Assembly: GCA_009787445.1 (NCBI GenBank)
Contig: WRFX01000025.1
Coordinates: 1 to 21,198, forward strand
Direction: 5' to 3'
DNA length: 21,198 nucleotides
Origin: Chitinivibrionia bacterium
Lineage (GTDB): Bacteria; Fibrobacterota; Chitinivibrionia; Chitinivibrionales; Chitinivibrionaceae
In this document: in pieces, positions 2,171 to 18,532 of the stretch
Numbering within the stretch: the first letter of the stretch is position 1
Layout: each line of letters begins with the position of its first letter
Position numbers and translations under genes: made by a program
Notes under the pieces: model-generated
What the model saw: only the letters and a program-made list of their open reading frames with translations
What the model was told of the DNA's origin: nothing
The model's database searches: none

Positions 2171-2417
2171 CTTTTTTCGTATTCTTTTCAAAACAAATAT
2201 TATATTGCTCCCGACTTCCGAAGAAATTGGCAGAGGCTGCGGACAGATAAGTTACGGCGGTTTGGTATTCAATATGCAAGACGGAACGATGGAAAAAAGA
2301 GCTGGCGACGACGTGAACAAGTAGATATATGCCGCGCTTGTCGGCGGTTTTGAGAAAATTTGTGTGTTTTTTCGGGGGCGTATTTTGCGGTACGTCCTTT
2401 TTTTTGTTTGGCGTATA

Positions 2418-2440: not shown

Positions 2441-2457
2441 GAAAAAGGGAGTAATTT

Positions 2458-2493
2458 ATGAAAACAAGTAAAAATAGAATGTTAAAGATATGA
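2458..2493 (+). CDS. 11-codon upstream ORF (MKTSKNRMLKI) translationally coupled to the methyltransferase gene
   Basis: A strong SD sequence AAGGGAG lies 7 nt upstream of the ATG at 2458. The stop TGA at 2491-2493 overlaps the mod ATG at 2490 (ATGA). The large gene has no SD of its own. The promoter motif at 2418-2440 lies directly upstream. Confidence 0.3.
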   Translation: MKTSKNRMLKI

Positions 2494-5400
2494 TGAAAAA
2501 CACAAGCGTAAACGAAAAATTGAATCGATTTGTCGAACTTTTGGAGGGCATATTTGAACTCGACAAAGCGGATTTGGACTTCGGCATTTACCGCGTTATG
2601 AATATTCGCAAAGACGAGATAAAAAATTTTCTCTCCGACAACTTGCCGAGAAAAATACGGGAAACTCTTGCCCCGTTCGCCGCTAATACCGAAACGCTTA
2701 CCGCTCGCATTGCCGAGATTGAAAAACAAGCCGCCGACCTTGACATAGAAATAACCGCAAGCCCGAAATTATCCGGCGAATATTCCCGTCTCAAATCGCA
2801 ACTTGCGGCTGGTGTGGATTTATCCGCCCTTGAAACGGACGTATATTCCGCTCTGTACAGTTTTTTCAACCGCTACTACGACGAAGGCGATTTTCTTTCC
2901 AAACGCCGCTACAAAGAGGGCGTATACGCAATACCTTACGAAGGCGAAGAGGTAAAACTTCACTGGGCAAACGCCGACCAGTATTATATAAAAACCGCCG
3001 AAAATTTCCGCGATTATTCATTTATCGTCGATAATAAAAAAGTACATTTTATACTCGTTGAAGCGACAACCGAAAAAAATAACAACAAAGAATCAAACGG
3101 CAACGGGCGTACTTTTATGCTATATACGGAAACCGCCGACAGCCCCGACGTTAAAACGATAGAAGGAATAGACGGCGAACTTATCATACGTTTTGTATAT
3201 AACATTCCCGAAGATAAAAAAAGAAATTACGCCGAAGAAAACCTTGCCGCCATAAAGGAGAATATTCATAAAAACTTTCCCGACTTTCAACGTTTACTCG
3301 CGGCAGTTTCCGAAAAAGATAACCGCTCGTTGCTCCAAAAACACTTGACCGCATACGTAGCAAAAAATACGTTTGATTACTTCATTCATAAAGACCTGAA
3401 CGGCTTTTTGACTCGCGAACTTGATTTTTTCATAAAAAGCGAAGTTATTTGTCTCGACGACATCGACACAACCGATGAAAAACGCGTCGAAAGTTACCTT
3501 GCAAAAGTGCGGGCTATAAAGCGCGTCGGAAAAATTATAATTGAATTTTTGTCGCAGATTGAGGAATTTCAGAAAAAACTGTATCTCAAGAAAAAATTCG
3601 TCGTGGAAACAAACTGGTGCTTAACGCTTGACCGCGTAGATGAAAGTTTTTATTCCGAAATAATTGAAAATACAGCGCAGATTGCCGAGTGGCGGGATAT
3701 GTATGCCATTGACGAAATACAAGAAAATTTATCCGCGGCAGTGTATTGCGACCCGCTGACAATTGAATTTCTGCGGCAAAACTCAAACCTTGTACTTGAC
3801 ACACGGCACTTCTCCGCAGATTTTAAAGACCGTCTTGTAGCAAGTATTGATAATTTGGACGAACAGACGGGGGGCTTGCTGATTCACAGCGAAAATTTTC
3901 AGGCGTTGGGATTGTTGCAGGAGAGGTATCGTGGGCAGATTAAGTGCGTCTATATTGACCCGCCGTATAATACCGATGCAAACAGCATTTTATATAAGAA
4001 CGGGTATAAGGATAGCTCTTGGATTAGCTTAATTCAAGATAGACTCCTATTAACAAATATTCTTATGCGTGAAGATTGCCCGATTATTGTAGCTATTGAT
4101 AGTGCAGAACAAGCAGAATTAAAACTTCTATTATCACAGATATATGTAAATTGTGATATTGATTGTGTTGCTATTGTTCATAATCCTAGAGGGATAATAG
4201 GCACAAACTTTTCTTATACCCACGAATATGCTATATTTGTATCGCCAAAAGGGAAAAAGATTGTAGGCAATAAAAAAATAGAACTGGCTGATATTGATTG
4301 GTCTCCCTTGCGAAATTGGGGCGGCGAATCATTAAGAACCGATGCAAAAAATTGTTTTTACCCTATAATAGTTGAAAATGATACCATAATTGGTTTTGGG
4401 GACATATGCGATGATGATTATCATCCAAATCAAACTGAAAAAATCGGAAATCAATTTTTTGTGTACCCTATCGACCAAAATGGTGTTGAACGCAAGTGGC
4501 GTTATGCGAGGCAAACTATTGACACAATTTTCAATTTAATTAAGGCAAAAAAAACAAAAAACGGTTATGATATAGAATTAGGCAAAGATTTTAGCTTGTA
4601 TAAATCCAGTTGGACGGAATCAAAATACGATGCGAGTGTAAATGGAACTCAGCTGATACAATCCATAATTGGCGACAATCCTTTTACATTTCCTAAATCT
4701 TTGTATACTGTTATAGATTGTATTTCTTCTACGACCACTAGTAATTCTATCATCCTCGACTACTTCGCCGGTAGCGGCACCACCGGTCACGCGGTAATAA
4801 ACCTGAACCGCCAAGACAACGGCAACCGCAAATACATCCTCGTGGAAATGGGCGAATACTTCAGCACGGTAATGCTCCCGCGAATGAAAAAAGTCATCTA
4901 TTCCACCGATTGGAAAAACGGCAAGCCGCAAAACCGCAATACCGGCGTAAGCCACATTATGAAGTATTTTACGCTGGAAAGTTACGAGGACGCGCTTTCC
5001 AATATAACGCTTGACGACGATAAACACGAATTGTCGTTAAAATTCGGCGACGAGTATATGGTGCGGTATATGTTTGATTATGAAGCGAAAAACAGTATGC
5101 TCAACCTTGACTTGTTCGCTATGCCTTTCGATTACAAACTGAAAATCAACGAGAACAACGAAACAAAAGAAAAAACCGCCGATTTGTGCGAGACATTTAA
5201 TTATCTTGTCGGATTATCGGTAATAAAACAATCGACGAAAGAATATTTTTCAGCCGACGACGACCCTGACGGCGAGTACGAAAACGCCGTTAGATTGGAA
5301 CCGAATAAAGACGGTAAATTCGTTTTCAAACGGATTGAAGGGAAACTGCCGGATGGCAGACGCGCGCTCGTTATTTGGCGCGTTATTACAGACGATTTAC

Positions 5401-5591
5401 TTAAAAGCAACGCCGCGCTTGACGCGTATTTTTCAAAAAGCAAAAACAATTTTACATACCGCGAATTTGACTTAATATTTGTCAACGGCGACAATAATCT
5501 CGAAAACCTGCGCCGCGACGACGAGAATTGGAAAGTACGGCGCATAGAACCCGTATTCAAAACAAAGATGTTTGAGGCGGCGCAATTTTGA
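2490..5591 (+). CDS. mod: Type III Mod-like beta-class N6-adenine (or N4-cytosine) DNA methyltransferase with ~450-aa N-terminal extension, 1033 aa
   Basis: Motif IV is present as IKCVYIDPPYNT (D490-Y493) and is preceded by LLIHSENFQALGLL. Motif I (SAM-binding) is present as ILDYFAGSGTT (aa ~757). The order IV-TRD-I defines the beta class. A ~260-aa variable region between the motifs is the target-recognition domain (TRD). The stop overlaps the start of the downstream helicase gene. Confidence 0.85.
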   Translation: MMKNTSVNEKLNRFVELLEGIFELDKADLDFGIYRVMNIRKDEIKNFLSDNLPRKIRETLAPFAANTETLTARIAEIEKQAADLDIEITASPKLSGEYSRLKSQLAAGVDLSALETDVYSALYSFFNRYYDEGDFLSKRRYKEGVYAIPYEGEEVKLHWANADQYYIKTAENFRDYSFIVDNKKVHFILVEATTEKNNNKESNGNGRTFMLYTETADSPDVKTIEGIDGELIIRFVYNIPEDKKRNYAEENLAAIKENIHKNFPDFQRLLAAVSEKDNRSLLQKHLTAYVAKNTFDYFIHKDLNGFLTRELDFFIKSEVICLDDIDTTDEKRVESYLAKVRAIKRVGKIIIEFLSQIEEFQKKLYLKKKFVVETNWCLTLDRVDESFYSEIIENTAQIAEWRDMYAIDEIQENLSAAVYCDPLTIEFLRQNSNLVLDTRHFSADFKDRLVASIDNLDEQTGGLLIHSENFQALGLLQERYRGQIKCVYIDPPYNTDANSILYKNGYKDSSWISLIQDRLLLTNILMREDCPIIVAIDSAEQAELKLLLSQIYVNCDIDCVAIVHNPRGIIGTNFSYTHEYAIFVSPKGKKIVGNKKIELADIDWSPLRNWGGESLRTDAKNCFYPIIVENDTIIGFGDICDDDYHPNQTEKIGNQFFVYPIDQNGVERKWRYARQTIDTIFNLIKAKKTKNGYDIELGKDFSLYKSSWTESKYDASVNGTQLIQSIIGDNPFTFPKSLYTVIDCISSTTTSNSIILDYFAGSGTTGHAVINLNRQDNGNRKYILVEMGEYFSTVMLPRMKKVIYSTDWKNGKPQNRNTGVSHIMKYFTLESYEDALSNITLDDDKHELSLKFGDEYMVRYMFDYEAKNSMLNLDLFAMPFDYKLKINENNETKEKTADLCETFNYLVGLSVIKQSTKEYFSADDDPDGEYENAVRLEPNKDGKFVFKRIEGKLPDGRRALVIWRVITDDLLKSNAALDAYFSKSKNNFTYREFDLIFVNGDNNLENLRRDDENWKVRRIEPVFKTKMFEAAQF

Positions 5592-8500
5592 CAAACAAAA
5601 ACGCGGCTTTTTCTAATTTTCAATGGAGCGAACAACTTGTATTGTTTCGTTATTTTCTTTATCTGTTCGGCAAAAATACGCTTGCCGGACTTGCGGGAAA
5701 TATGAACAATTCGGAATATGAAGGCGTTAATGAAAATCAGAATACGTTTTTTTATGACGAATTAGACGGCGTTTTGTCGCGATACGGCGCGAACGCAAAG
5801 GTAAGCCGCGACGCGCTTCGCGAATACGACGAGAATATTTGCCGCTACGTTAAACAAATTGGCGAGAATCGCGGCGGCATTAAACTGAAATATTTTCAGT
5901 ATATCGCGTGTTTATTTACCGAAATATATCTTGACCGTTATTTTACGGACAAAACCGGATTTGCGGAAGAATTAAACGAATTTTCGAAAAAAGTAAAAAA
6001 AGAAAGTTCCGGCTCGATAGACATTGAACAATTCACGCCCGCAAATATGAATAAACTGGCTTTTATGTGCGCCACGGGCAGCGGCAAAACGCTTATTATG
6101 CATATAAATATTTTGCAATTTTCATATTATCTTAAAAAGGCGAAAATGTTTAATCCGCGTATAAATATTAACAAGATTATCGTTCTTGCGCCGAACGAAG
6201 GAATGTCCCAACAACATTTGGCGGAACTTTATTTGTCGCGCATATCGGCGGAGATGTTCGTAAAAAGCGGTTTCGGCAATAGCGCCGATGTGGTCATCGT
6301 AGATATGAACAAACTAAAAGAGGAAGGTAAGGTAAAAACCGTTTCCGTCGACAGTTTTGAACAGAACAATCTCGTGCTTGTGGACGAGGCGCATCGCGGG
6401 CTTGCCGGCGACGTGTGGTACGATTACCGCTCGCGTCTTTCGGCGGAAGGCGGCTTTGCGTTTGAATATTCCGCCACGCTTAAACAGGCGATGAAAACGC
6501 TGAACGTTAAAAAAGACAAAACGCTTCTCGACGAGTATTTCCGTTCGATTATCATTGACTATTCGTATAAATTCTTTTACGAAGACGGTTACGGCAAAGA
6601 ATACCGAATTTATAATCTGCAAGACAGTATAGACGATGAACAGCGGCAATTATATCTTACGGGATGTTTGTTGTCGTTTTATCAACAACTGAAATTATTT
6701 GCGCAAAAAGTCAAGGAGTATGCGCCGTTTAGTTTGGAAAAGCCGCTGCTTGTTTTTGTCGGCAATCGCGTAACTGCAAAAACGTCCGCCGCCGAGATGA
6801 CCGACGTCGAGGAAGTTTTGGACTTTATCGATAAATTCGCGCATAACAGGGAACGAACGATAGGTCGGATAAACGCCGTTTTAAACGAAGACACGGGACT
6901 TACGGACAGCCGCGGACGCGAACTGTTTTCGCAAAATTTCAACGCCTTATTTTCGCTGTTCGGCGCCGCGCCAAAAGCGGAGGACGTTTATAAAGATATT
7001 TTGCGCGTCGTGTTCAACAGCGATACGGTATCCGACGAATTGCGTTTGCATCTCTTAAACTTGCGTCAAGTGCAAGGCGAAATAGCGTTGCGTATAGGAA
7101 AAGACGGCAAGTATTTCGGCGTGATAAGTATCGGGGATACTTCGGGACTTATTAAAAACTGCGAGGCAAAGGGTATTTTTGCCGAAACGGAGGAATTTGT
7201 CAATGAATCGCTGTTTGGAAATATTAACGAAAAAGTATCTAATATTAACGTTCTTATCGGTTCGCGCAAATTTAGCGAAGGATGGAACTCGTGGCGCGTT
7301 TCGACTATGGGACTTATTAACTTCGCGAAGAGCGAAGGGTCTCAGGCAATACAACTTTTCGGTCGCGGCGTGCGGTTGCGCGGATACGGCGGCTGCCTGA
7401 AACGAAGCGGCAAATTAGACGACCGTTCTATTGTTGCGCCGAAAAACATAGAATTGCTCGAAACTTTGACAATATTCGGTATCAAGGCGAAGTATATGGA
7501 AGATTTCAAAAGACATCTTGAAATAGAAGGTATGCCCGTCAACGAGAAACCTCGCGAATACGCGCTACCGGTTATAAGCCGATACGGTGAAATTAAAGAT
7601 AAAAAACTCCGCGTAATTAAGGTTAAAGACGGCGCGAATTTTAAGAAACAGGCGGCGCGGCTAATGCTAGCGGCGCCGGACGAAGGGTTTTTACGTTATT
7701 TGAACGGAAACAAAGCGATTATTGACTGCCGTTCAAAAGTGCAAACGCTGGAATCCGCGTCGAATGAAAGAATACAATTAGCGCCAAGCGAATATACTAT
7801 TGACGAAAAGTATATTCCGTTTCTTGATTACGAGCGAATTTTTGACGAATTACAAACTTATAAAAACGCTAAACTTTATTATAATATTTCTTTGTCTAAA
7901 GACAAAATAAAGGCAATTTTGCTGACGGACGGATGGTACGGGCTTATTATCCCCCCAAGCCATATAAATATCGACAGCATAGAAAAACTTTCTTTAAATA
8001 CCGATTTTGCAATAATGGTATTAAAAATTTATATCGACAAATTTTACAAATACGAAAAAGACCGATGGGAAACCCCGCGGCTCGAATATCAGGAATTGGA
8101 CGAAAACGACAATAATTTTGTCGACGAATACAAATTCTCCTGTTACGGTAATGACGGCGCCGACTCCGTTGCAGATACTGTGGAGCAGTTTGTCAAGGAC
8201 TTGAACGTGCTACTAAAACAGCATAACGGTATTCCGGCATACGAGAATAGTATATTGAACGGCGCGCTTGTCGCTTTTGACTTTCGGCAACATTTGTACA
8301 CGCCGCTTATATCCAAAGCAGGCGACTTAAAATTGACCGTATCTCCCGTAAGTTTGAACGACGACGAGAAAAAATTTGTCGACAAACTGAAATACTATGT
8401 CGACGATAACGTCGATATGTTCGACGGCAAAACATTATATCTGCTCCGCAATAAGAGCAAAATAGGTATGGGCTTTTTTGAAGCGGGCAATTTTTATCCC

Positions 8501-8827
8501 GACTATGTACTTTGGATAGATACGCCAAAAATACAATATGTTTCCTTCATTGACCCGAAAGGACTGCGCCATATACAATGGGACGACCCAAAAATCGAAT
8601 TTTATGCCGCAATAAAAAATCTTGAAACCAGATTGCAGCCGTCAAGCGCCGATAAACAAATTGTGTTGAACTCGTTTATAATGTCCGCTACACGTTGCGA
8701 AGACCTGCGTCAATGGTGGGGCAAGGATATGGCGCAACGCCGCGCCAAGAATGTATTCTGCCTCGACGAGAGCGATTGCATTGAGGGAATGTTCGAGTTA
8801 ATTAAAGATAATTTTAAGAAAACGTAA
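5588..8827 (+). CDS. res: Type III Res-like SF2 DEAH-box helicase with C-terminal PD-(D/E)xK endonuclease motif, 1079 aa (alternative ATG start at 5702)
   Basis: The Walker A motif is CATGSGKTL (aa ~162-168). Motif II is LVLVDEAHRG (DEAH at 266-269). Motif III is YSATL. Motif VI is QLFGRGVRLRG (~aa 589). The C-terminal sequence FYPDYVLWID...VSFIDPKG gives a PD-(x16)-DxK nuclease signature (aa ~971-991). The TTG at 5588 follows GAGG at 10-nt spacing and overlaps the mod stop (tTGA). The first in-frame ATG is at 5702. Confidence 0.85.
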   Translation: MTNKNAAFSNFQWSEQLVLFRYFLYLFGKNTLAGLAGNMNNSEYEGVNENQNTFFYDELDGVLSRYGANAKVSRDALREYDENICRYVKQIGENRGGIKLKYFQYIACLFTEIYLDRYFTDKTGFAEELNEFSKKVKKESSGSIDIEQFTPANMNKLAFMCATGSGKTLIMHINILQFSYYLKKAKMFNPRININKIIVLAPNEGMSQQHLAELYLSRISAEMFVKSGFGNSADVVIVDMNKLKEEGKVKTVSVDSFEQNNLVLVDEAHRGLAGDVWYDYRSRLSAEGGFAFEYSATLKQAMKTLNVKKDKTLLDEYFRSIIIDYSYKFFYEDGYGKEYRIYNLQDSIDDEQRQLYLTGCLLSFYQQLKLFAQKVKEYAPFSLEKPLLVFVGNRVTAKTSAAEMTDVEEVLDFIDKFAHNRERTIGRINAVLNEDTGLTDSRGRELFSQNFNALFSLFGAAPKAEDVYKDILRVVFNSDTVSDELRLHLLNLRQVQGEIALRIGKDGKYFGVISIGDTSGLIKNCEAKGIFAETEEFVNESLFGNINEKVSNINVLIGSRKFSEGWNSWRVSTMGLINFAKSEGSQAIQLFGRGVRLRGYGGCLKRSGKLDDRSIVAPKNIELLETLTIFGIKAKYMEDFKRHLEIEGMPVNEKPREYALPVISRYGEIKDKKLRVIKVKDGANFKKQAARLMLAAPDEGFLRYLNGNKAIIDCRSKVQTLESASNERIQLAPSEYTIDEKYIPFLDYERIFDELQTYKNAKLYYNISLSKDKIKAILLTDGWYGLIIPPSHINIDSIEKLSLNTDFAIMVLKIYIDKFYKYEKDRWETPRLEYQELDENDNNFVDEYKFSCYGNDGADSVADTVEQFVKDLNVLLKQHNGIPAYENSILNGALVAFDFRQHLYTPLISKAGDLKLTVSPVSLNDDEKKFVDKLKYYVDDNVDMFDGKTLYLLRNKSKIGMGFFEAGNFYPDYVLWIDTPKIQYVSFIDPKGLRHIQWDDPKIEFYAAIKNLETRLQPSSADKQIVLNSFIMSATRCEDLRQWWGKDMAQRRAKNVFCLDESDCIEGMFELIKDNFKKT

Positions 8828-11662: not shown

Positions 11663-13306
11663 TTAAAACAATCCGCTAATTACACCTTTGTCGTCCACGT
11701 CTATCATTTCCGCCGCGGGATTTTTGGGAAGTCCCGGCATTGTCATTATATCGCCCGCTATCGCTACGACGAATCCCGCGCCCGCCGATAGCCGAATTTG
11801 GCGAACGTTTATTTTAAAACCCGTCGGCGCGCAAATCTTTTTTGCGTTGTCCGTAAAAGAATACTGCGTTTTCGCGATACATACGGGAAGCGAGCCGTAG
11901 CCGAGTTTTTCGATATTCTTTATCTGCCTCGTCGCTTCAGCCGAAAACGTTACTCCGTCCGCGCCGTATATGTTGCGCACTATCGTTTCAATTTTTTCGG
12001 TTACGGGCAAATTCGTATCGTATAAATAGCGGAAATTATTTGGACTGTTAACCGCGCCGAGTATTTTTTCCGCAAGTTCAACTCCGCCTTCGCCGCCGCG
12101 TTCATACACGTCCGAGATAGCGGCGGTCGCCCCGAAACTTTCGGCGGCAACGCAAACGTAATTTAAGTCCTCTTGCGTATCGGACGGAAAACGGTTGATA
12201 GCCGCCACGCACGGAAGTCCGTAGCGTTTCGTCATATTTTCGATATGTCTTTTGAGGTTTGCGACGCCTTCTTTAAGCGAGCCGTCGTCTCCTCCGTGAT
12301 GTTTGAGCGCCCTTACAGTCGCGACGACAACCGCGACAGACGGCTGCAATCCGAACCTGCGGCATTTGACGTCGATAAATTTCTCCGCGCCCAAATCCGC
12401 TCCGAACCCCGCTTCCGTTACGACATAGTCGGCAAGATTTACGGCGGCAAGCGTTGCGGCGGCGCTATTGCATCCGTGCGCGATATTTGCGAACGGTCCG
12501 CCGTGGACGAACGCGGGAGTGTGTTCGAGCGTCTGCACGAGGTTGGGTTTAAGCGCGTCTTTAAGCAAAGTCGTCATCGCTCCGTGCGCGCGCAAATCTC
12601 CCGCGGTAACGGGCGCGCCGCCATACGTATAACCGATAATTATTTTCGACAGGTTTTCTTTCAGCGCGGTTATATTTTCGGAAAGGCAGAACACCGCCAT
12701 AACTTCCGACGCGGCGGTGATATCGAATCCGTCTTCGCGCGGCGTACCGTTTGATTTTCCGTTGAGACCGCCGATATAAAAACGCAGTTGTCTGTCGTTC
12801 AAATCGACCGCCCGCCGCCAAGTTACGCGGCGCGGGTCGATATTCAGCGCGTTTCCTTGCCAGATATGGTTGTCTATCATTGCGGCAAGCAAATTGTTCG
12901 CCGAAGTTATCGCGTGCAAGTCGCCGGTAAAATGCAGGTTTATGTCTTCCATCGGCACTATCTGCGCGTAACCGCCTCCCGCCGCGCCGCCTTTTATCCC
13001 GAACACCGGTCCAAGCGACGGCTCGCGCAGGCAAATTATAACATTCTTTTTAAGCCGCGCCAGCGCATCCCCTATGCCTACGGTCGTGGTGGTTTTGCCT
13101 TCGCCCGCGGGCGTGGGAGTTATCGCCGTTACGAGAATTATTTTCGCGCGCCGTTTGGCGTTTGTCAGCGCGGCGGCATTGAGGTTTAATTTCGCCTTGT
13201 ATTTGCCGTAAAGTTCTATGTCGTTTTCGGCAAGCCCGATTTTTTGCGCTATTGAAGCGATATGTTCCAATTTCGCCTCGCGGTCTATTTCAATGTCGGT
13301 TTTCAT
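11663..13306 (-). CDS. fhs: Formate--tetrahydrofolate ligase (FTHFS), 547 aa
   Basis: The protein begins [12 protein letters not shown]. The motif [19 protein letters not shown] matches the conserved FTHFS nucleotide-binding signature. The start at 13306 is preferred over the upstream ATG at 13375 because a GGGGA RBS lies 6 nt upstream and the length is typical. Confidence 0.9.
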
Positions 13307-14005: not shown

Positions 14006-15952
14006 ATGATATATAGAAAAAAACGCAAAAAAATTTATTATTCGTACAAAAAACTCATAATAATTTTAATTTTTATTTTCTGCGAAATTTCTTTTTGCGA
14101 AGAAAATATTGATTCCTTAAAACTTGCGCAAATTAAGGATTCGTTATACAACATATTTAAAAAACAGGAAGCGTACCATAACGAACGATTTTTTGACAAT
14201 AAAACGCTTTTTTCGCCGACAAAAATTTTACGGCAGCATTTTTTTGGAAACGATTATTTCACTTATAGCGACGTTCTTTCCGGCAATCAAAATTTCGCGT
14301 CTTTGCGATATTCGCCCGATTTTCCGCTGAACCGCGCGCTTTTTCGCGGATATACGATTCCTATCGAATCAGGACTTTTAAGCCGACTTTATTCTCCCGT
14401 TTTGCCGTTTTATTATTACGATTTGTTAGAAATAAAAGAATTTGAAATTCGTCCAAACGGCGACATTTCTCCCGTGATTTTTGACGGAAAAACCGTAACT
14501 CCCGATGTATTTTTCGCTTGGCAGGGCGGACTTTTTAACGGAAATACGCTGAAATTCAGAATGATGCGAAATTTATCGGATAAATTGTCTATGCTTGCGT
14601 TTATTTCGTATTCGGACCTGAAAAGAATGCAATTTTATCACGGCGGCGGAATGGCGCAAACATACAAAACGTATCACAAAGATACGACAAAAATATCGAT
14701 AAACGGCTACAATCCTTATTCTATGACGAACAAAAGCGGAATTTCGTTGGATTACAAAAACAATATTTCGACGTCTTTGCGATATTCGTATTCCGATATA
14801 GGGCAGGATTTGGCGTATCGCACGGATTCCGTCGTCGTTACGCCCGACTCGGTTTTGAATATCGCTTGGAACGAATCGCGAAATTATTTGCATCAAATAG
14901 ACGGCGCGTTTGAAATTCCTTTCGGCGATAAAATTTTATTTAGAAATCTCGGCAAAATCGAAACCGTAAAACAAAACGAAGTTCCGATTTCCCGCACGGC
15001 GCGCGGACGACCCGTTACGGAAAGAAGTTCGCGGGAAAACACGCTTCAATCGGCGGGTTCGCAGTTGTATTTCGCGCCGAAAGATTTTGATTCCATTTCG
15101 CTGCAATTTTCGGTAAATCGCTACATTTCCGATAGCGCAGGAATTACGCACACCGTCGCGCACAATACGAAATTTCTTGCGGAAAACAAGTTTGTTTCGC
15201 CAAATTCGGACAATATTTCCATAACGACAAACGGCGGAATAGAATTTGTAAGAGCAAACGGGAAAAAGATAAAAAATTATCCGTTAGGATTATTGGAAAT
15301 CGACTGGAAAATAAACAATTTTCAAACGCAAATTTGGGGAAAATCGGGTTTTTCTCCGTTAGTTTATTCTAAACCTTACGAAAATTACGACGAAATTGCG
15401 GACGGTTTTAAGGCGTTCGGCGCAAATTTGCGTTATCAGTTTCCCGCCGCGTCCATAAATTTCGGATATTCCGCTATTGACGCGGCAAATATCAGTAAAT
15501 ATTGGCATAATTCAGAGCCGTATTATTGTCCGAAAAACGTTTTTTCCATCGGCGCAAATTTGGGCGAAATTGGCAATTTTTCGTTGTTTTCAAATTGGCT
15601 TTTAAGCGACGAAAAGCCGTACGTAAAATCGTATTCTGGCTTGCGATTTCACTTCAATACAAATTCGCAAGTCCGTCAATTTTATACGGACGTTTTTTAT
15701 AATTATTGGAGCAAAAGAACAAAATATACGGGCGCGTTTTTGTCCGACGCTCAATACTCGTATTTTGGCGATTATCCGCATTGGGGACGTTCGATTCACG
15801 ATGTTTCGTTTAAGTTGACCGCCGAAATTCATACTTTTCGCATATTTTGGAAAATAGATAATTTTCTTAATCGTACAAATTCGTATATTCCCGGATATAT
15901 TATGCCCGGTCTTATTTTTCGCTGGGGATTTTCTTGGAATGTTTTGGGGTGA
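14006..15952 (+). CDS. Putative outer-membrane protein with signal peptide, 648 aa (possibly Lpt/OMP-assembly related)
   Basis: An AAGGA RBS is present. A basic N-terminus is followed by a hydrophobic segment (LIIILIFIFCEISFC). The protein is aromatic- and Gly-rich with beta-strand-like composition and an aromatic-rich C-terminus (IFRWGFSWNVLG). Its stop lies 3 nt before the lptFG start, suggesting co-transcription. Confidence 0.55.
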   Translation: MIYRKKRKKIYYSYKKLIIILIFIFCEISFCEENIDSLKLAQIKDSLYNIFKKQEAYHNERFFDNKTLFSPTKILRQHFFGNDYFTYSDVLSGNQNFASLRYSPDFPLNRALFRGYTIPIESGLLSRLYSPVLPFYYYDLLEIKEFEIRPNGDISPVIFDGKTVTPDVFFAWQGGLFNGNTLKFRMMRNLSDKLSMLAFISYSDLKRMQFYHGGGMAQTYKTYHKDTTKISINGYNPYSMTNKSGISLDYKNNISTSLRYSYSDIGQDLAYRTDSVVVTPDSVLNIAWNESRNYLHQIDGAFEIPFGDKILFRNLGKIETVKQNEVPISRTARGRPVTERSSRENTLQSAGSQLYFAPKDFDSISLQFSVNRYISDSAGITHTVAHNTKFLAENKFVSPNSDNISITTNGGIEFVRANGKKIKNYPLGLLEIDWKINNFQTQIWGKSGFSPLVYSKPYENYDEIADGFKAFGANLRYQFPAASINFGYSAIDAANISKYWHNSEPYYCPKNVFSIGANLGEIGNFSLFSNWLLSDEKPYVKSYSGLRFHFNTNSQVRQFYTDVFYNYWSKRTKYTGAFLSDAQYSYFGDYPHWGRSIHDVSFKLTAEIHTFRIFWKIDNFLNRTNSYIPGYIMPGLIFRWGFSWNVLG

Positions 15953-15955
15953 TAA

Positions 15956-18532
15956 ATGATATTTTACAGATACATAGTAAAAGAATTTATGCGTCCGTTT
16001 TTATACTCGGTCGCGGTGATTTTTATAGTTTTTTTTATGCAACTCGTCGCGCAAATTTTACCGAGAGTATTATATAGAGGCGTTTCGTTTGAGATAGTTG
16101 CGGAATTGTTGGTCGTGAATATGGCAGCTATAATTTCTTTGGCTTTGCCTATGGCTCTTTTAATTTCGTCGCTTATGGTTTTTGGAAAATTATCGTCCGA
16201 CAACGAATATACCGCAATGAAATCGGTGGGAATGAGTTTGTTCGATATGTTGCCGCCGATAGTCAGTTTAAGCGCGATAATCGCCGTACTTTTAATGATT
16301 TTCAACAGCAATATTTTGCCCAACGTAAATCATCACGCGGCGCAACTTATGTCGGATATTATGCGAAAAAAACCCGCCGCGCTTATCGAGCCGGGAGTTC
16401 TAATAAAGGATTTTCAGGGTTATGCGATAAAAGTGGATTCGGTAACGACGGGAACGGGAAATTTATACGGAATTACTATTTTTACGACGCAAAACGACCA
16501 AATTCCTATGGTAAGCGTAGCGGACAGCGGAACGCTTTATCTGACAAAAGACGAAAAATATTTGGAATTGACGCTTTTTTCGGGGCAGACGATTAGCGAA
16601 AACATAAGCGGCGAAAGCGGCGGAAGCGAGGCGAATTTTTTTAAGATAAATTTTGAAAAACAGACGATTTTTGTAGAAAATATAGACAGCGAATTTACCC
16701 GAAGCGATTTGCACAATCGCGGAAATCGCGAAATGGCAAACAAAGAACTTTTAGATGAAATTTCCAATTATAACGAAACGATTTCAAACGAAATAATTTC
16801 GTTTAACGACCGACTTTTAGAAATTACCGAAAGAATAGACGACGCTGCGTCCGATACGTCGGCGATTCTTTATATGGACGATTTTTCTCAATGGTATTCG
16901 GCGGTAATCGCCCGTTTGGGAAGTAGAAACGTTAGCGAAATAAAAAGCGAAATAAATTTCACAAAAGCCAGATTGCAAAGAATCGACGAGTATAAAATCG
17001 AACTCAATAAATACAAAATGGAGATTTATAAAAAATATTCGCTTGCAGTCGGCGCGGTGATTTTCGTTATTTTGGGCGTTCCTTTGGGAATAATCGCGCG
17101 CAACGGAAGCGCCGCAATCAGCGTGAGTTACAGTTTGATATTTTTCATTTTTCACTGGACGTTTTTGATAGGCGGCGAATATTTGGTAAATCAGGGAAAA
17201 CTTATTCCCAGCGTCGCTATGTGGGGAGGAAACGCGATTTTTGCGCTCGTCGCCGTGTGGCTTTTAAGAAAGGTGTCGGGCTACGAAAGCAAGTTTAATA
17301 TATTGTCCGTTTTCGGCGCGTTTGCGGACGTAGTTAAAAAGTTCTTCAAAATAACGAAATTAAATCTTGTTTTCGGTTTTGTAAAAACGCTTTTAGGATT
17401 ATTTGCGGATTTGCCGAGAATTGTCCTGAAACTGTTTTTATCGACTATTCCCGCGTATATTATCGGACGATTTTTCTCGTATTTTTTCGTAACGACAATC
17501 GGACTTTGCGTTATTACGGCGGTTATCGATTTTGTAGGAAACATTCATACGTTTACGGGGGCGAAAACTCCCGAATTAGTTAATTATTACTTATATTTTG
17601 TCGCGTCGTTTCTGTCTATGCTTTTGCCTATCTCTATGCTTTTGTCGGTTATGCTTTCGGTGGGTTCCTTCGCGAAAACAAACGAATTGACGGCTATAAA
17701 ATCGGGCGGAATAAGCATCGCAAAAATGACTTCTCCGCTTATACTTATAGGATTTATTATCGCCGTCGGGAATTTTTTCTTCAACGAGACGTTTTTGGGC
17801 AACGCGAACGAAAAATTGGAATTATACAGAAACACGTTTTCCGCTCGGCAGCAAGGACGACCCATTCCGACGGAAGTCGTAGAATTTCGCCGAAATTTTT
17901 ATTATTTTTCCGATGAAAATACCGCCTATTATTTCAGAAAAATCAACACTTCGCCCGCAAACGGCGAAACGGTCGTGCGTTATTCTTTTGAAAATAACAG
18001 AGTAAAAAGTATTGCGACGTCCGATTTTTTGGAATATTCTACCGAAAAAAAACAGTGGATTATGCCCAACGGACAGGAAAAAATTCTGCAACGGGACGGC
18101 GAGGTTTTAGCGAATATTTTGACGCAAAATATACTTTTAGACCTTAATCAGCCGCCAAGCGATATGGTAAAAACTATACGAAGAATAGAAATGATGAGTT
18201 GGACGGAATTGCAAAAAAGAATGGAAAATGCAAAACAACGCGGAGAAAAAACGCAAAAGTATTTGGCAGATAGTAATTTTAAGTTTTCCTTGCCGCTTAT
18301 GAACGTAATTGTCGTGCTTGTCGGCATCGCGGTAACAGCCCGCTCGACCAAACGCGGAGGCGCCGTGCATTTTGGAGCGGGACTTGGATTTGTGTTTATT
18401 TATTGGGGAATCGCGCAATTTTTGATTGTGCTTGGAAGAAACGAATCGGTAGACCCGATAGTCGCGGCGTGGAGCGCGACGGCGCTTTTTACGATTTTAG
18501 GATTTTTTCTTTATACGAGGGCTTCGAGATGA
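15956..18532 (+). CDS. Fused LptF-LptG-like LPS export permease (two tandem YjgP/YjgQ-family modules), 858 aa
   Basis: The first module begins MIFYRYIVKEFMRPFLYSVAVIF..., the typical LptF/G N-terminus. The second module begins ~aa 470 (LPRIVLKLFLSTIPAYIIGRFFSYFFVTTIGLCVITAVID). Each module has TM segments followed by a periplasmic beta-jellyroll-like stretch. Confidence 0.75.
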   Translation: MIFYRYIVKEFMRPFLYSVAVIFIVFFMQLVAQILPRVLYRGVSFEIVAELLVVNMAAIISLALPMALLISSLMVFGKLSSDNEYTAMKSVGMSLFDMLPPIVSLSAIIAVLLMIFNSNILPNVNHHAAQLMSDIMRKKPAALIEPGVLIKDFQGYAIKVDSVTTGTGNLYGITIFTTQNDQIPMVSVADSGTLYLTKDEKYLELTLFSGQTISENISGESGGSEANFFKINFEKQTIFVENIDSEFTRSDLHNRGNREMANKELLDEISNYNETISNEIISFNDRLLEITERIDDAASDTSAILYMDDFSQWYSAVIARLGSRNVSEIKSEINFTKARLQRIDEYKIELNKYKMEIYKKYSLAVGAVIFVILGVPLGIIARNGSAAISVSYSLIFFIFHWTFLIGGEYLVNQGKLIPSVAMWGGNAIFALVAVWLLRKVSGYESKFNILSVFGAFADVVKKFFKITKLNLVFGFVKTLLGLFADLPRIVLKLFLSTIPAYIIGRFFSYFFVTTIGLCVITAVIDFVGNIHTFTGAKTPELVNYYLYFVASFLSMLLPISMLLSVMLSVGSFAKTNELTAIKSGGISIAKMTSPLILIGFIIAVGNFFFNETFLGNANEKLELYRNTFSARQQGRPIPTEVVEFRRNFYYFSDENTAYYFRKINTSPANGETVVRYSFENNRVKSIATSDFLEYSTEKKQWIMPNGQEKILQRDGEVLANILTQNILLDLNQPPSDMVKTIRRIEMMSWTELQKRMENAKQRGEKTQKYLADSNFKFSLPLMNVIVVLVGIAVTARSTKRGGAVHFGAGLGFVFIYWGIAQFLIVLGRNESVDPIVAAWSATALFTILGFFLYTRASR

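What the first reader, a model, noticed from the sequence alone, without database searches (positions are those of the whole stretch)
2458..8827. Compact two-gene defence-like module: extended beta-class MTase plus DEAH helicase-nuclease, translationally coupled
The MTase carries the Type III Mod hallmarks (DPPY motif IV before FxGxG motif I). The downstream protein carries the Type III Res hallmarks (GSGKT, DEAH, SAT and QxxGRGxR motifs, plus a C-terminal PD...DxK motif). The two genes overlap (tTGA). The MTase is about 1.6 times the usual Mod length, because ~450 extra N-terminal residues are fused in frame. The helicase has a 160-aa leader before its Walker A motif. No brx, pgl or drm companion genes are present, so this is not BREX or DISARM. 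The module sits between a UDPGP-like gene and hisE. It could be a divergent Type III R-M system or an undescribed Mod-fusion defence variant.
Basis: partly seen in the sequence, partly recalled or inferred. Interest (0 to 1): 0.72.

Follow-up and report, generated by a model that had tools for sequence, protein, structure and literature searches.

The report
Eco86II-like long Type III restriction-modification pair
This is an intact two-gene Type III restriction-modification system of an already described "long Mod / long Res" family (E. coli Eco86II is a studied relative), so it is ordinary, although the large conserved N-terminal domain of its methyltransferase has no known function.

Summary
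A 1033-aa beta-class methyltransferase (2490-5591; DPPY before FAGSG) is followed by a 1079-aa DEAH helicase with a C-terminal PD...DxK motif (5588-8827), and the two genes overlap by 4 nt (tTGA). Only the start is off: the ATG at 2458 opens an out-of-frame 11-codon uORF.

The module is not an undescribed fusion. Both proteins align end to end (36% identity each) with the Mod and Res of E. coli F9792. E. coli NCTC86 carries the same mod gene (99.9% identical). Its locus fits the published description of Eco86II, a Type III system that makes m4C at GAGCC and cuts about 25 bp away (PMC8259958). PADLOC's MTase_III and REase_III models, which the F9792 proteins match over their whole length, also match the window's proteins.

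The long architecture is widespread: 2443 clusters at 50% identity and at least 585 species genomes. Long Mod and this Res lineage pair in both directions (58/58 and 56/57 loci). A DrmD-like SNF2 gene lies upstream in 55/70 genome loci but is absent from the window, which holds the minimal two-gene form.

What remains open is the N-terminal ~450 aa of Mod. It is better conserved than the catalytic core, yet has no Pfam match and no solved structural relative. The methylated base (m4C or m6A) cannot be predicted.

The parts
2374..2409 (+). Terminator-like hairpin plus T-run that closes the upstream unit; marks the 5' boundary of the mod-res operon
   Evidence: 11-pair stem at 2374-2399 followed by TTTTTTGTTT. 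Only about 80 nt remain before the mod start.
2458..2493 (+). 11-codon uORF (MKTSKNRMLKI*) preceded by the Shine-Dalgarno sequence AAGGGAG (2445-2451). Its TGA overlaps the Mod ATG (ATGA), so it may act as a coupling leader. Its significance is unproven.
Evidence: Homologues instead have a Shine-Dalgarno sequence directly before the Mod ATG.
2490..5591 (+). mod: 1033-aa beta-class DNA methyltransferase, the Type III Mod of the Eco86II-like long family
   Evidence: Pfam N6_N4_Mtase at aa 484-791. PADLOC MTase_III PDLC03646, E 7e-202. 36% identity end to end with the E. coli F9792 Mod. PDB sequence hits to Mbo45V, the H. pylori Mod and EcoP15I Mod.
2490..3854 (+). Mod N-terminal domain (aa 1-~455), specific to this family and of unknown function
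3957..3968 (+). Methyltransferase catalytic motif IV, DPPY (aa 490-493)
   Evidence: nearly invariant in the family.
4137..4724 (+). Hypervariable region (aa ~550-745) between motifs IV and I; presumed target-recognition domain
   Evidence: Column conservation falls to 0.2-0.4 here. In E. coli alleles this middle part is swapped while the flanks stay about 97% identical.
4764..4778 (+). AdoMet-binding motif I, FAGSG (aa 759-763)
4977..5588 (+). Mod C-terminal extension (aa ~830-1033), conserved in the family and with no known family match
   Evidence: Conserved blocks LESYED, ETFN and NGD. It aligns with the F9792 Mod to the last residues.
5588..8827 (+). res: 1079-aa SF2 DEAH helicase with a C-terminal PD-(D/E)xK nuclease. 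TTG start overlaps the mod stop (tTGA).
5588..6037 (+). Res N-terminal leader (aa 1-150), a helical module specific to this family
   Evidence: Conserved from residue ~17; the KYFQY..LFTEIYLD block is shared with the Eco86II-type Res. AF2 models it as helices with pLDDT about 80-90.
6077..7375 (+). Helicase motifs: GSGKT (6077-6091), DEAH (6383-6394), SAT (6470-6478), QLFGRGVR (7352-7375)
   Evidence: K167, D266, E267, H269, R593 and R596 are invariant in 63/63 Res proteins of 34-78% identity.
8495..8563 (+). Nuclease motif YPDY...(16 aa)...IDPKG (PD 971-972; D989-P-K991)
   Evidence: P971 and D972 are invariant in 63/63; D989 is D in 61 and E in 2; K991 is K in 58 and H in 5.

Best explanation
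The module is a stand-alone, apparently functional Type III restriction-modification system of the Eco86II/BspHIV-type 'long Mod / long Res' family. It sits in the chromosome of a Chitinivibrionia (Fibrobacterota) MAG.

Shown by sequence:
- Mod is a beta-class amino-methyltransferase with a hypervariable target-recognition region between motifs IV and I.
- Res is an SF2 DExH ATPase with a conserved C-terminal PD-(D/E)xK nuclease.
- The genes are co-oriented and overlap, so Res translation is tied to Mod.
- All catalytic motifs are intact.

Inferred from the homologue Eco86II and from Type III enzymology in general (my own knowledge of that literature):
- A Mod dimer binds a short asymmetric site and methylates one strand, giving m4C or m6A.
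- On unmodified foreign DNA, the Mod2Res complex uses ATP to switch into a sliding state.
- It cuts about 25 bp from a site when two inversely oriented sites communicate.

The family-specific N-terminal domain of Mod and the Res leader most likely form part of the Mod-Res assembly or a DNA-clamping interface. This is inference at low confidence.

The DrmD-like SNF2 ATPase that accompanies most relatives is absent here, so the window holds the minimal two-gene form.
For: - Motifs and ORFs.
- Family matches: Pfam N6_N4_Mtase and ResIII; PADLOC MTase_III PDLC03646 (E 7e-202) and REase_III PDLC03654 (E 5e-180).
- The same two models are matched over their whole length by the E. coli F9792 proteins (2207 and 2322 bits).
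- End-to-end BLASTP alignments with the F9792 Mod and Res: 36% identity each, E = 0.
- NCTC86 carries the same mod gene at 99.9% identity, within an SNF2-mod-res locus. This fits the published Eco86II description: GAGCC, m4C, cleavage about 25 bp 3' of the site, and an extra helicase-like gene 5' of mod (PMC8259958).
- Strict pairing: Res lies downstream of the long Mod in 58/58 genome loci, and a long Mod lies upstream of Res in 56/57 metagenome loci.
- Catalytic residues of Res are invariant across 63 relatives.
- The Mod core matches solved Type III Mods at the sequence level.
Against: - The Res lineage has no detectable sequence relationship to the canonical EcoP15I Res. The PDB profile search finds nothing at E up to 10.
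- Identity to the only studied relative is just 36%.
- Eco86II cleavage was shown only partially, in a crude fraction.
- No methylome or restriction data exist for this organism.
- About 650 residues of Mod and the Res leader have no assigned role, so the mechanism could differ from classical Type III enzymes.
- Equating the NCTC86 locus with Eco86II rests on the paper's statement that the strain has a single Type III system; no accession was given in the text I read.
Confidence: 0.85

Rival explanations
1. A mechanistically distinct defence system that only looks like Type III. In this reading, the conserved N-terminal Mod domain and the Res leader add an activity of their own (sensing, gating of the nuclease, or recruiting a DrmD-like remodeller), so the family would be a DISARM-like or new class rather than a classical R-M system.
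For: - The N-terminal domain is the best-conserved part of Mod, with 40 invariant columns, many of them charged.
- It has no Pfam match and no PDB structural relative.
- Most relatives carry an SNF2 gene whose best PADLOC match is DrmD (E 2e-198; 55/70 loci).
- Res is unrelated in sequence to canonical Res proteins.
Against: - Eco86II behaves as a Type III enzyme. Mod alone methylates a specific asymmetric site, the enzyme cuts about 25 bp from the site, and the SNF2 protein was not needed and was not detected in the active fraction (PMC8259958).
- No DrmA, DrmB or DrmC, nor any other defence gene, is present in the window.
- The N-terminal domain is equally conserved in loci with and without SNF2 (alignment A1; loci).
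Confidence: 0.1
2. A methyltransferase acting mainly as an epigenetic regulator (a phasevarion-type Mod), or a decaying system whose restriction arm is inactive.
For: Type III mod genes are often phase-variable regulators (PMC5909438, abstract). The unusual uORF in front of mod could modulate expression.
Against: - No simple-sequence repeat tracts occur in or before mod.
- Both ORFs are full length.
- Every helicase and nuclease catalytic residue conserved in the family is intact.
- The identical locus is found in a second, independent assembly.
Confidence: 0.04

Closest known systems
Eco86II (E. coli NCTC86; isoschizomer EcoF9792I), Type III R-M 'group 3' of Murray et al. 2021, PLoS One (PMC8259958)
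   Same: Same domain order over the full length of both subunits: Mod of ~1040 aa with the N-terminal domain, DPPY, a variable middle, FxGxG and a C-terminal extension; Res of ~1126 aa with the leader, GSGKT, DExH, SAT, QxxGRGxR and PD...DPK. Identity is 36% in each subunit. Both match the same PADLOC models. mod and res are tightly linked.
   Different: The window lacks the SNF2-like ATPase gene 5' of mod. The target-recognition region is unrelated, so the specificity must differ. The methylated base is unknown here (m4C in Eco86II). The host is a Fibrobacterota MAG, not an enterobacterium.
BspHIV (Acinetobacter sp. H), m4C Type III with an extra helicase gene (PMC8259958)
   Same: The paper places it in the same three-gene group as Eco86II. 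The mod clone size in its Table 3 (5.9 kb) is the same as for Eco86II; if the vector is ~2.7 kb (my assumption, not stated in the text I read), that implies a mod gene of ~3.2 kb.
   Different: It has the SNF2-like gene.
EcoP15I / EcoP1I, the classical Type III R-M (PDB 4zcf)
   Same: Beta-class Mod core (E 4e-21 to 4zcf_A), mod-res operon, and a Res built from an SF2 ATPase plus a C-terminal PD-(D/E)xK nuclease.
DISARM class 1 (DrmD SNF2 helicase next to an adenine methylase)
   Same: Relatives of this module, though not the window itself, carry an SNF2 gene that scores best as PADLOC DrmD, directly 5' of the methyltransferase.
   Different: No DrmA, DrmB (DUF1998) or DrmC. Among the 25 best PADLOC families listed for Mod none is a DISARM methylase; all are R-M MTase models plus one weak PD-Lambda-5_B hit.

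Membership tests
Type III restriction-modification | Adjacent, co-oriented mod then res genes | tested here: met
   4-nt overlap. The arrangement is conserved in 58/58 and 56/57 related loci.
Type III restriction-modification | Mod is a beta-class N6A/N4C methyltransferase (motif IV DPPY before motif I FxGxG, variable region between them) | tested here: met
Type III restriction-modification | Res combines SF2 helicase motifs with a C-terminal PD-(D/E)xK nuclease | tested here: met
Type III restriction-modification | Res is homologous to canonical Res proteins (EcoP15I / EcoP1I) | tested here: not met
Type III restriction-modification | Short asymmetric site methylated on one strand; ATP-dependent cleavage ~25 bp away that needs two inversely oriented sites | not testable with these tools
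   Shown in part for the homologue Eco86II: GAGCC, m4C, cuts about 25 bp 3' of the site (PMC8259958).
Eco86II/BspHIV-type long Type III subgroup (Murray 2021, group 3) | End-to-end homology of both subunits to Eco86II | tested here: met
   (36% identity, full length).
Eco86II/BspHIV-type long Type III subgroup (Murray 2021, group 3) | Additional SF2/SNF2-like ATPase gene immediately 5' of mod | tested here: not met
   tblastn with two SNF2 partners finds nothing in the window. The upstream ORF is unrelated. The feature is variable in the family: 55/70 genome loci, and 18/37 loci in the closer clade.
Eco86II/BspHIV-type long Type III subgroup (Murray 2021, group 3) | m4C rather than m6A product | not testable with these tools
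   Both kinds of enzyme carry DPPY, and no sequence determinant is known (PMC8259958).
DISARM | DrmA helicase, DrmB (DUF1998) and DrmC/DrmD/DrmE companion genes | tested here: not met
   PADLOC scans of all window ORFs and Pfam scans find none.
BREX | PglX (gamma-class methyltransferase), PglZ, BrxC and BrxL companion genes | tested here: not met
   In addition, the methyltransferase is beta-class.

The most novel reading that the evidence does not exclude
The N-terminal ~450-aa Mod domain has no Pfam match and no solved structural relative, is better conserved than the catalytic core, and occurs in at least 585 species. Together with the Res leader, it may be a family-specific coupling device that changes how Mod controls Res (for example by gating the ATPase or nuclease, or by clamping DNA). 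That would make the long Mod/Res family a mechanistically separate Type III subclass. The SNF2-less window would then be its minimal self-sufficient form.
Probability: 0.25. Interest if true: 0.5.

Novelty: new member of a known kind. Interest (0 to 1): 0.25.

Why it matters
For annotation, this locus should be filed as a Type III R-M system of the Eco86II-like family, not as a new defence system. Anyone planning a methylome search should look for an asymmetric, single-strand motif that may be m4C rather than m6A.

The wider point is modest but real. A very common Type III lineage (at least 585 species genomes and 2443 protein clusters at 50% identity) carries about 650 residues of Mod and a 150-residue Res leader whose roles nobody has examined. 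It often recruits a DrmD-like SNF2 ATPase of unknown role. The two-gene form seen here is a natural minimal construct for finding out what the extra domains do without the SNF2 partner.

Tried and rejected
1. N-terminal 450 aa as a frameshift artefact or separate ORF. Rejected: the fusion is in frame in the 120 best full-length homologues, in the 150 best listed relatives of the domain (of 2443 clusters) and in more than 130 fetched loci.

5. Phase variation. No repeat tracts were found.

6. The uORF as a tandem duplicate of the mod 5' end. The local alignment is no better than shuffled sequence (126/500 shuffles score as high).

7. The upstream 406-aa ORF or other neighbours as system components. 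No defence-family hits, and the ORF lies upstream of a terminator-like hairpin that precedes mod.

8. Literature on the N-terminal domain. The only paper in the library that mentions Eco86II never discusses it. The 2025 EcoSal review gave nothing relevant.
Full report
**Observation**

The window has two long co-oriented ORFs: 2490-5591 (1033 aa, ATG) and 5588-8827 (1079 aa, TTG).

The first carries DPPY (aa 490-493) upstream of FAGSG (aa 759-763). The second carries GSGKT (164-168), DEAH (266-269), SAT (295-297), QLFGRGVR (589-596) and YPDY...IDPKG (970-992). The TTG at 5588 overlaps the Mod stop TGA at 5589-5591.

Homologous Res proteins have N-termini of the same length and are conserved from residue ~17, upstream of the alternative ATG at 5702. 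The TTG start is therefore sound.

It opens an 11-codon uORF whose TGA overlaps the real Mod ATG at 2490.

**Family assignment**

- Pfam sees only N6_N4_Mtase (aa 484-791) in Mod and ResIII/DEAD (aa 147-300) in Res. NCBIfam gives nothing above its cut-offs.
- PADLOC has near-full-length models. MTase_III PDLC03646 matches Mod residues 10-911 (E 7e-202), and REase_III PDLC03654 matches Res (E 5e-180).
- The Mod core matches solved Type III Mods: Mbo45V 7dsu, H. pylori 6k0w and EcoP15I 4zcf_A.
- Res has no PDB sequence relative, even when searched as a 65-sequence profile at E up to 10.

**Distribution**

- Full-length homologues are abundant. The 120 best Mod hits are 926-1111 aa (nearly all above 1020) and 55-71% identical; those that carry a name are called adenine-specific or site-specific DNA-methyltransferase, apart from two MAG entries that NCBI labels 'hypothetical protein'.
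- The 120 best Res hits are 61-79% identical over 93-100% of the query.
- An exhaustive HMMER search with Mod residues 1-450 found 2443 cluster representatives at 50% identity (902 at E of 1e-30 or better). In the 150 best listed, the domain starts within the first ~20 residues in nearly all, and most are ~1000-1100 aa; the shorter entries may be fragments.
- A scan of one genome per species found at least 585 species with a relative, spread across many bacterial phyla. Plasmid hits include haloarchaea.

The N-terminal extension is thus a fixed family feature, not a frameshift artefact.

**Link to a characterised system**

A tblastn search of plasmids led to an E. coli/Klebsiella plasmid locus with HTH, SNF2, a 1046-aa methyltransferase and a 1120-aa helicase. 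A distant DNA search of E. coli genomes then led to strain F9792. There a frameshifted SNF2 gene, a 1040-aa Mod and a 1126-aa Res lie together.

The window's Mod and Res align with these proteins from first to last residue at 36% identity each. The alignment covers the N-terminal domain, the C-terminal extension, the Res leader and the nuclease motif. The F9792 proteins match the two PADLOC models over their whole length (2207 and 2322 bits).

The same mod gene is 99.9% identical in E. coli NCTC86, again within an SNF2-mod-res locus.

Murray et al. 2021 (PMC8259958) report the following:
- Eco86II from NCTC86 is a Type III system that makes m4C at GAGCC.
- Mod alone is sufficient for methylation.
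- A partially purified fraction cuts about 25 bp 3' of the site.
- The system has an extra helicase-like ATPase gene 5' of mod. This protein was not needed and was not detected in the active fraction.
- EcoF9792I is listed as an isoschizomer.

I equate the NCTC86 locus with Eco86II because the paper says the strain has a single Type III system and the gene order matches. This step is an inference. The paper does not mention the N-terminal domain, and it is the only paper in the library that names Eco86II.

**Gene neighbourhoods**

Starting from the Mod N-terminal domain, in 80 species genomes:
- A Res homologue lies downstream on the same strand in 58/58 loci with enough sequence. It is directly adjacent in 29. 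In the other 29 it is separated by 0.9-6 kb.
- The intervening DNA holds unrelated, defence-like genes: AAA_21 + DUF4276, a PHP + SMC-like ATPase, YhcG/DUF1016 and a DUF262-like protein (the last by my reading of the sequence, not scanned).
- An SNF2 gene lies upstream in 55/70 loci. Its best PADLOC match is DrmD (E 2e-198), although no DrmA, DrmB or DrmC accompanies it in the loci whose called genes were listed; the other loci were not screened for these.

Starting from Res, in 80 metagenome contigs (43-77% identity):
- A long Mod lies upstream in 56/57 loci.
- SNF2 is present in 18/37 loci with room for it.

The window has no SNF2 and no other ORF matching a defence family. A terminator-like hairpin (2374-2409) precedes the operon, and hisE/hisG follow it. 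An independent ENA assembly has the identical locus and context. The contig belongs to a Chitinivibrionia (Fibrobacterota) MAG.

**The uncharacterised parts**

Across 213 aligned sequences (the window's Mod plus 212 long Mods), the N-terminal domain is better conserved than the methyltransferase core. The region between motifs IV and I (aa ~550-745) is hypervariable, as expected for a target-recognition domain.

In a 110-sequence alignment reaching down to 38% identity, 40 N-domain columns are invariant. They include D30, R35, R128, E153, E154, N161, D163, Q164, K168, R207, D296, H300, E310, K316, E318, Q356, E358, K367 and K369. The alignment includes members from loci with SNF2 and without it, so the domain's role does not depend on SNF2.

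An AF2 model of residues 1-462 has mean pLDDT 80.3 and pTM 0.56. It shows a helical bundle (aa 1-132), a small beta-sheet module (164-238) and long helices (247-459). The most conserved stretch (134-161, GDFLSKRRYKEGVYAIPYEGEEVKLHWAN) is modelled as disordered. That pattern suggests a segment that folds only against a partner.

Across 63 Res proteins of 34-78% identity:
- K167, D266, E267, H269, R593, R596, P971 and D972 are invariant.
- D989 is D in 61 and E in 2.
- K991 is K in 58 and H in 5.

**Mechanism**

Shown: an intact beta-class methyltransferase with a variable specificity region, coupled to an intact SF2 ATPase-nuclease, homologous over their full lengths to a system with demonstrated site-specific methylation and site-proximal cleavage.

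Inferred: a Mod dimer recognises an asymmetric site and methylates one strand. On unmodified DNA, Res uses ATP to start one-dimensional communication between inversely oriented sites and cuts about 25 bp from one of them.

The modified base cannot be predicted. The studied relatives make m4C, but identity is only 36%, and m4C and m6A enzymes share the DPPY motif.

I think the role of the N-terminal domain and the Res leader is most likely Mod-Res assembly or DNA clamping. That is a guess at low confidence.

No simple-sequence repeats suggest phase variation.

**Verdict**

This is a new, uncharacterised member of a known kind: an Eco86II-like long Type III R-M system in its minimal two-gene form. 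The residual interest lies in the unstudied, highly conserved N-terminal Mod domain.

Noticed in passing
window 2445-2493: An 11-codon uORF (MKTSKNRMLKI*) lies behind a strong Shine-Dalgarno sequence (AAGGGAG), and its TGA overlaps the Mod ATG (ATGA). The Mod ATG has no Shine-Dalgarno sequence of its own, whereas homologues have one directly upstream. This may be a coupling leader or may be chance in AT-rich DNA. A suspected duplication of the mod 5' end was not significant.
   Followed up: partly
L012, L013, L021, L029, L040, L046, L048, L052, L055, L060, L064-L067, L069, L070, L073-L075, L077, L078, L081-L085 (between mod and res): In 29 of 58 species genomes, the slot between mod and res holds 0.9-6 kb of unrelated defence-like genes on the same strand: AAA_21/AAA_15 ATPase + DUF4276, a ~900-aa PHP + SMC-like ATPase, a YhcG/DUF1016 nuclease and a DUF262-like protein. 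The operon appears to act as a docking site for other defence cassettes.
   Followed up: partly
L005:5144-7987, L007:5977-8940, L170:1589-4480 and 55/70 genome loci: The SNF2 ATPase gene that usually sits 5' of the long mod scores best as PADLOC DrmD (PDLC02619, E 2e-198), although no other DISARM gene is nearby in the annotated loci inspected. Defence-annotation pipelines may therefore mislabel such loci as partial DISARM.
   Followed up: partly
L004:3954-14904 (Candidatus Accumulibacter MAG): Two long mod genes (1021 and 1045 aa) are separated by an AAA_14/DUF4143 ATPase gene and followed by a single res. This could be a two-specificity arrangement, like the three-mod, one-res locus reported for Mycoplasma bovis.
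   Followed up: no
P0440 (1149 aa), P0474 (1173 aa): Some long Mods carry an added DUF559 (Vsr-like endonuclease) domain, according to precomputed Pfam hits.
   Followed up: no
E. coli genomes: 167 of 5426 complete E. coli genomes carry an Eco86II-type mod. Only 34 match over the full length. The rest match the N- and C-terminal parts at about 97% identity while the central third is replaced, which indicates allelic swapping of the target-recognition region.
   Followed up: partly
window 15956-18532 and 14006-15952: An 858-aa ORF matches LptF_LptG with two stretches, which looks like a fused LptF-LptG permease. The preceding 648-aa ORF has no hit in Pfam, NCBIfam or PADLOC.
   Followed up: no
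window 12001-13000: GC content rises to about 0.55 inside the formate-tetrahydrofolate ligase gene, against 0.34-0.45 in the rest of the window.
   Followed up: no
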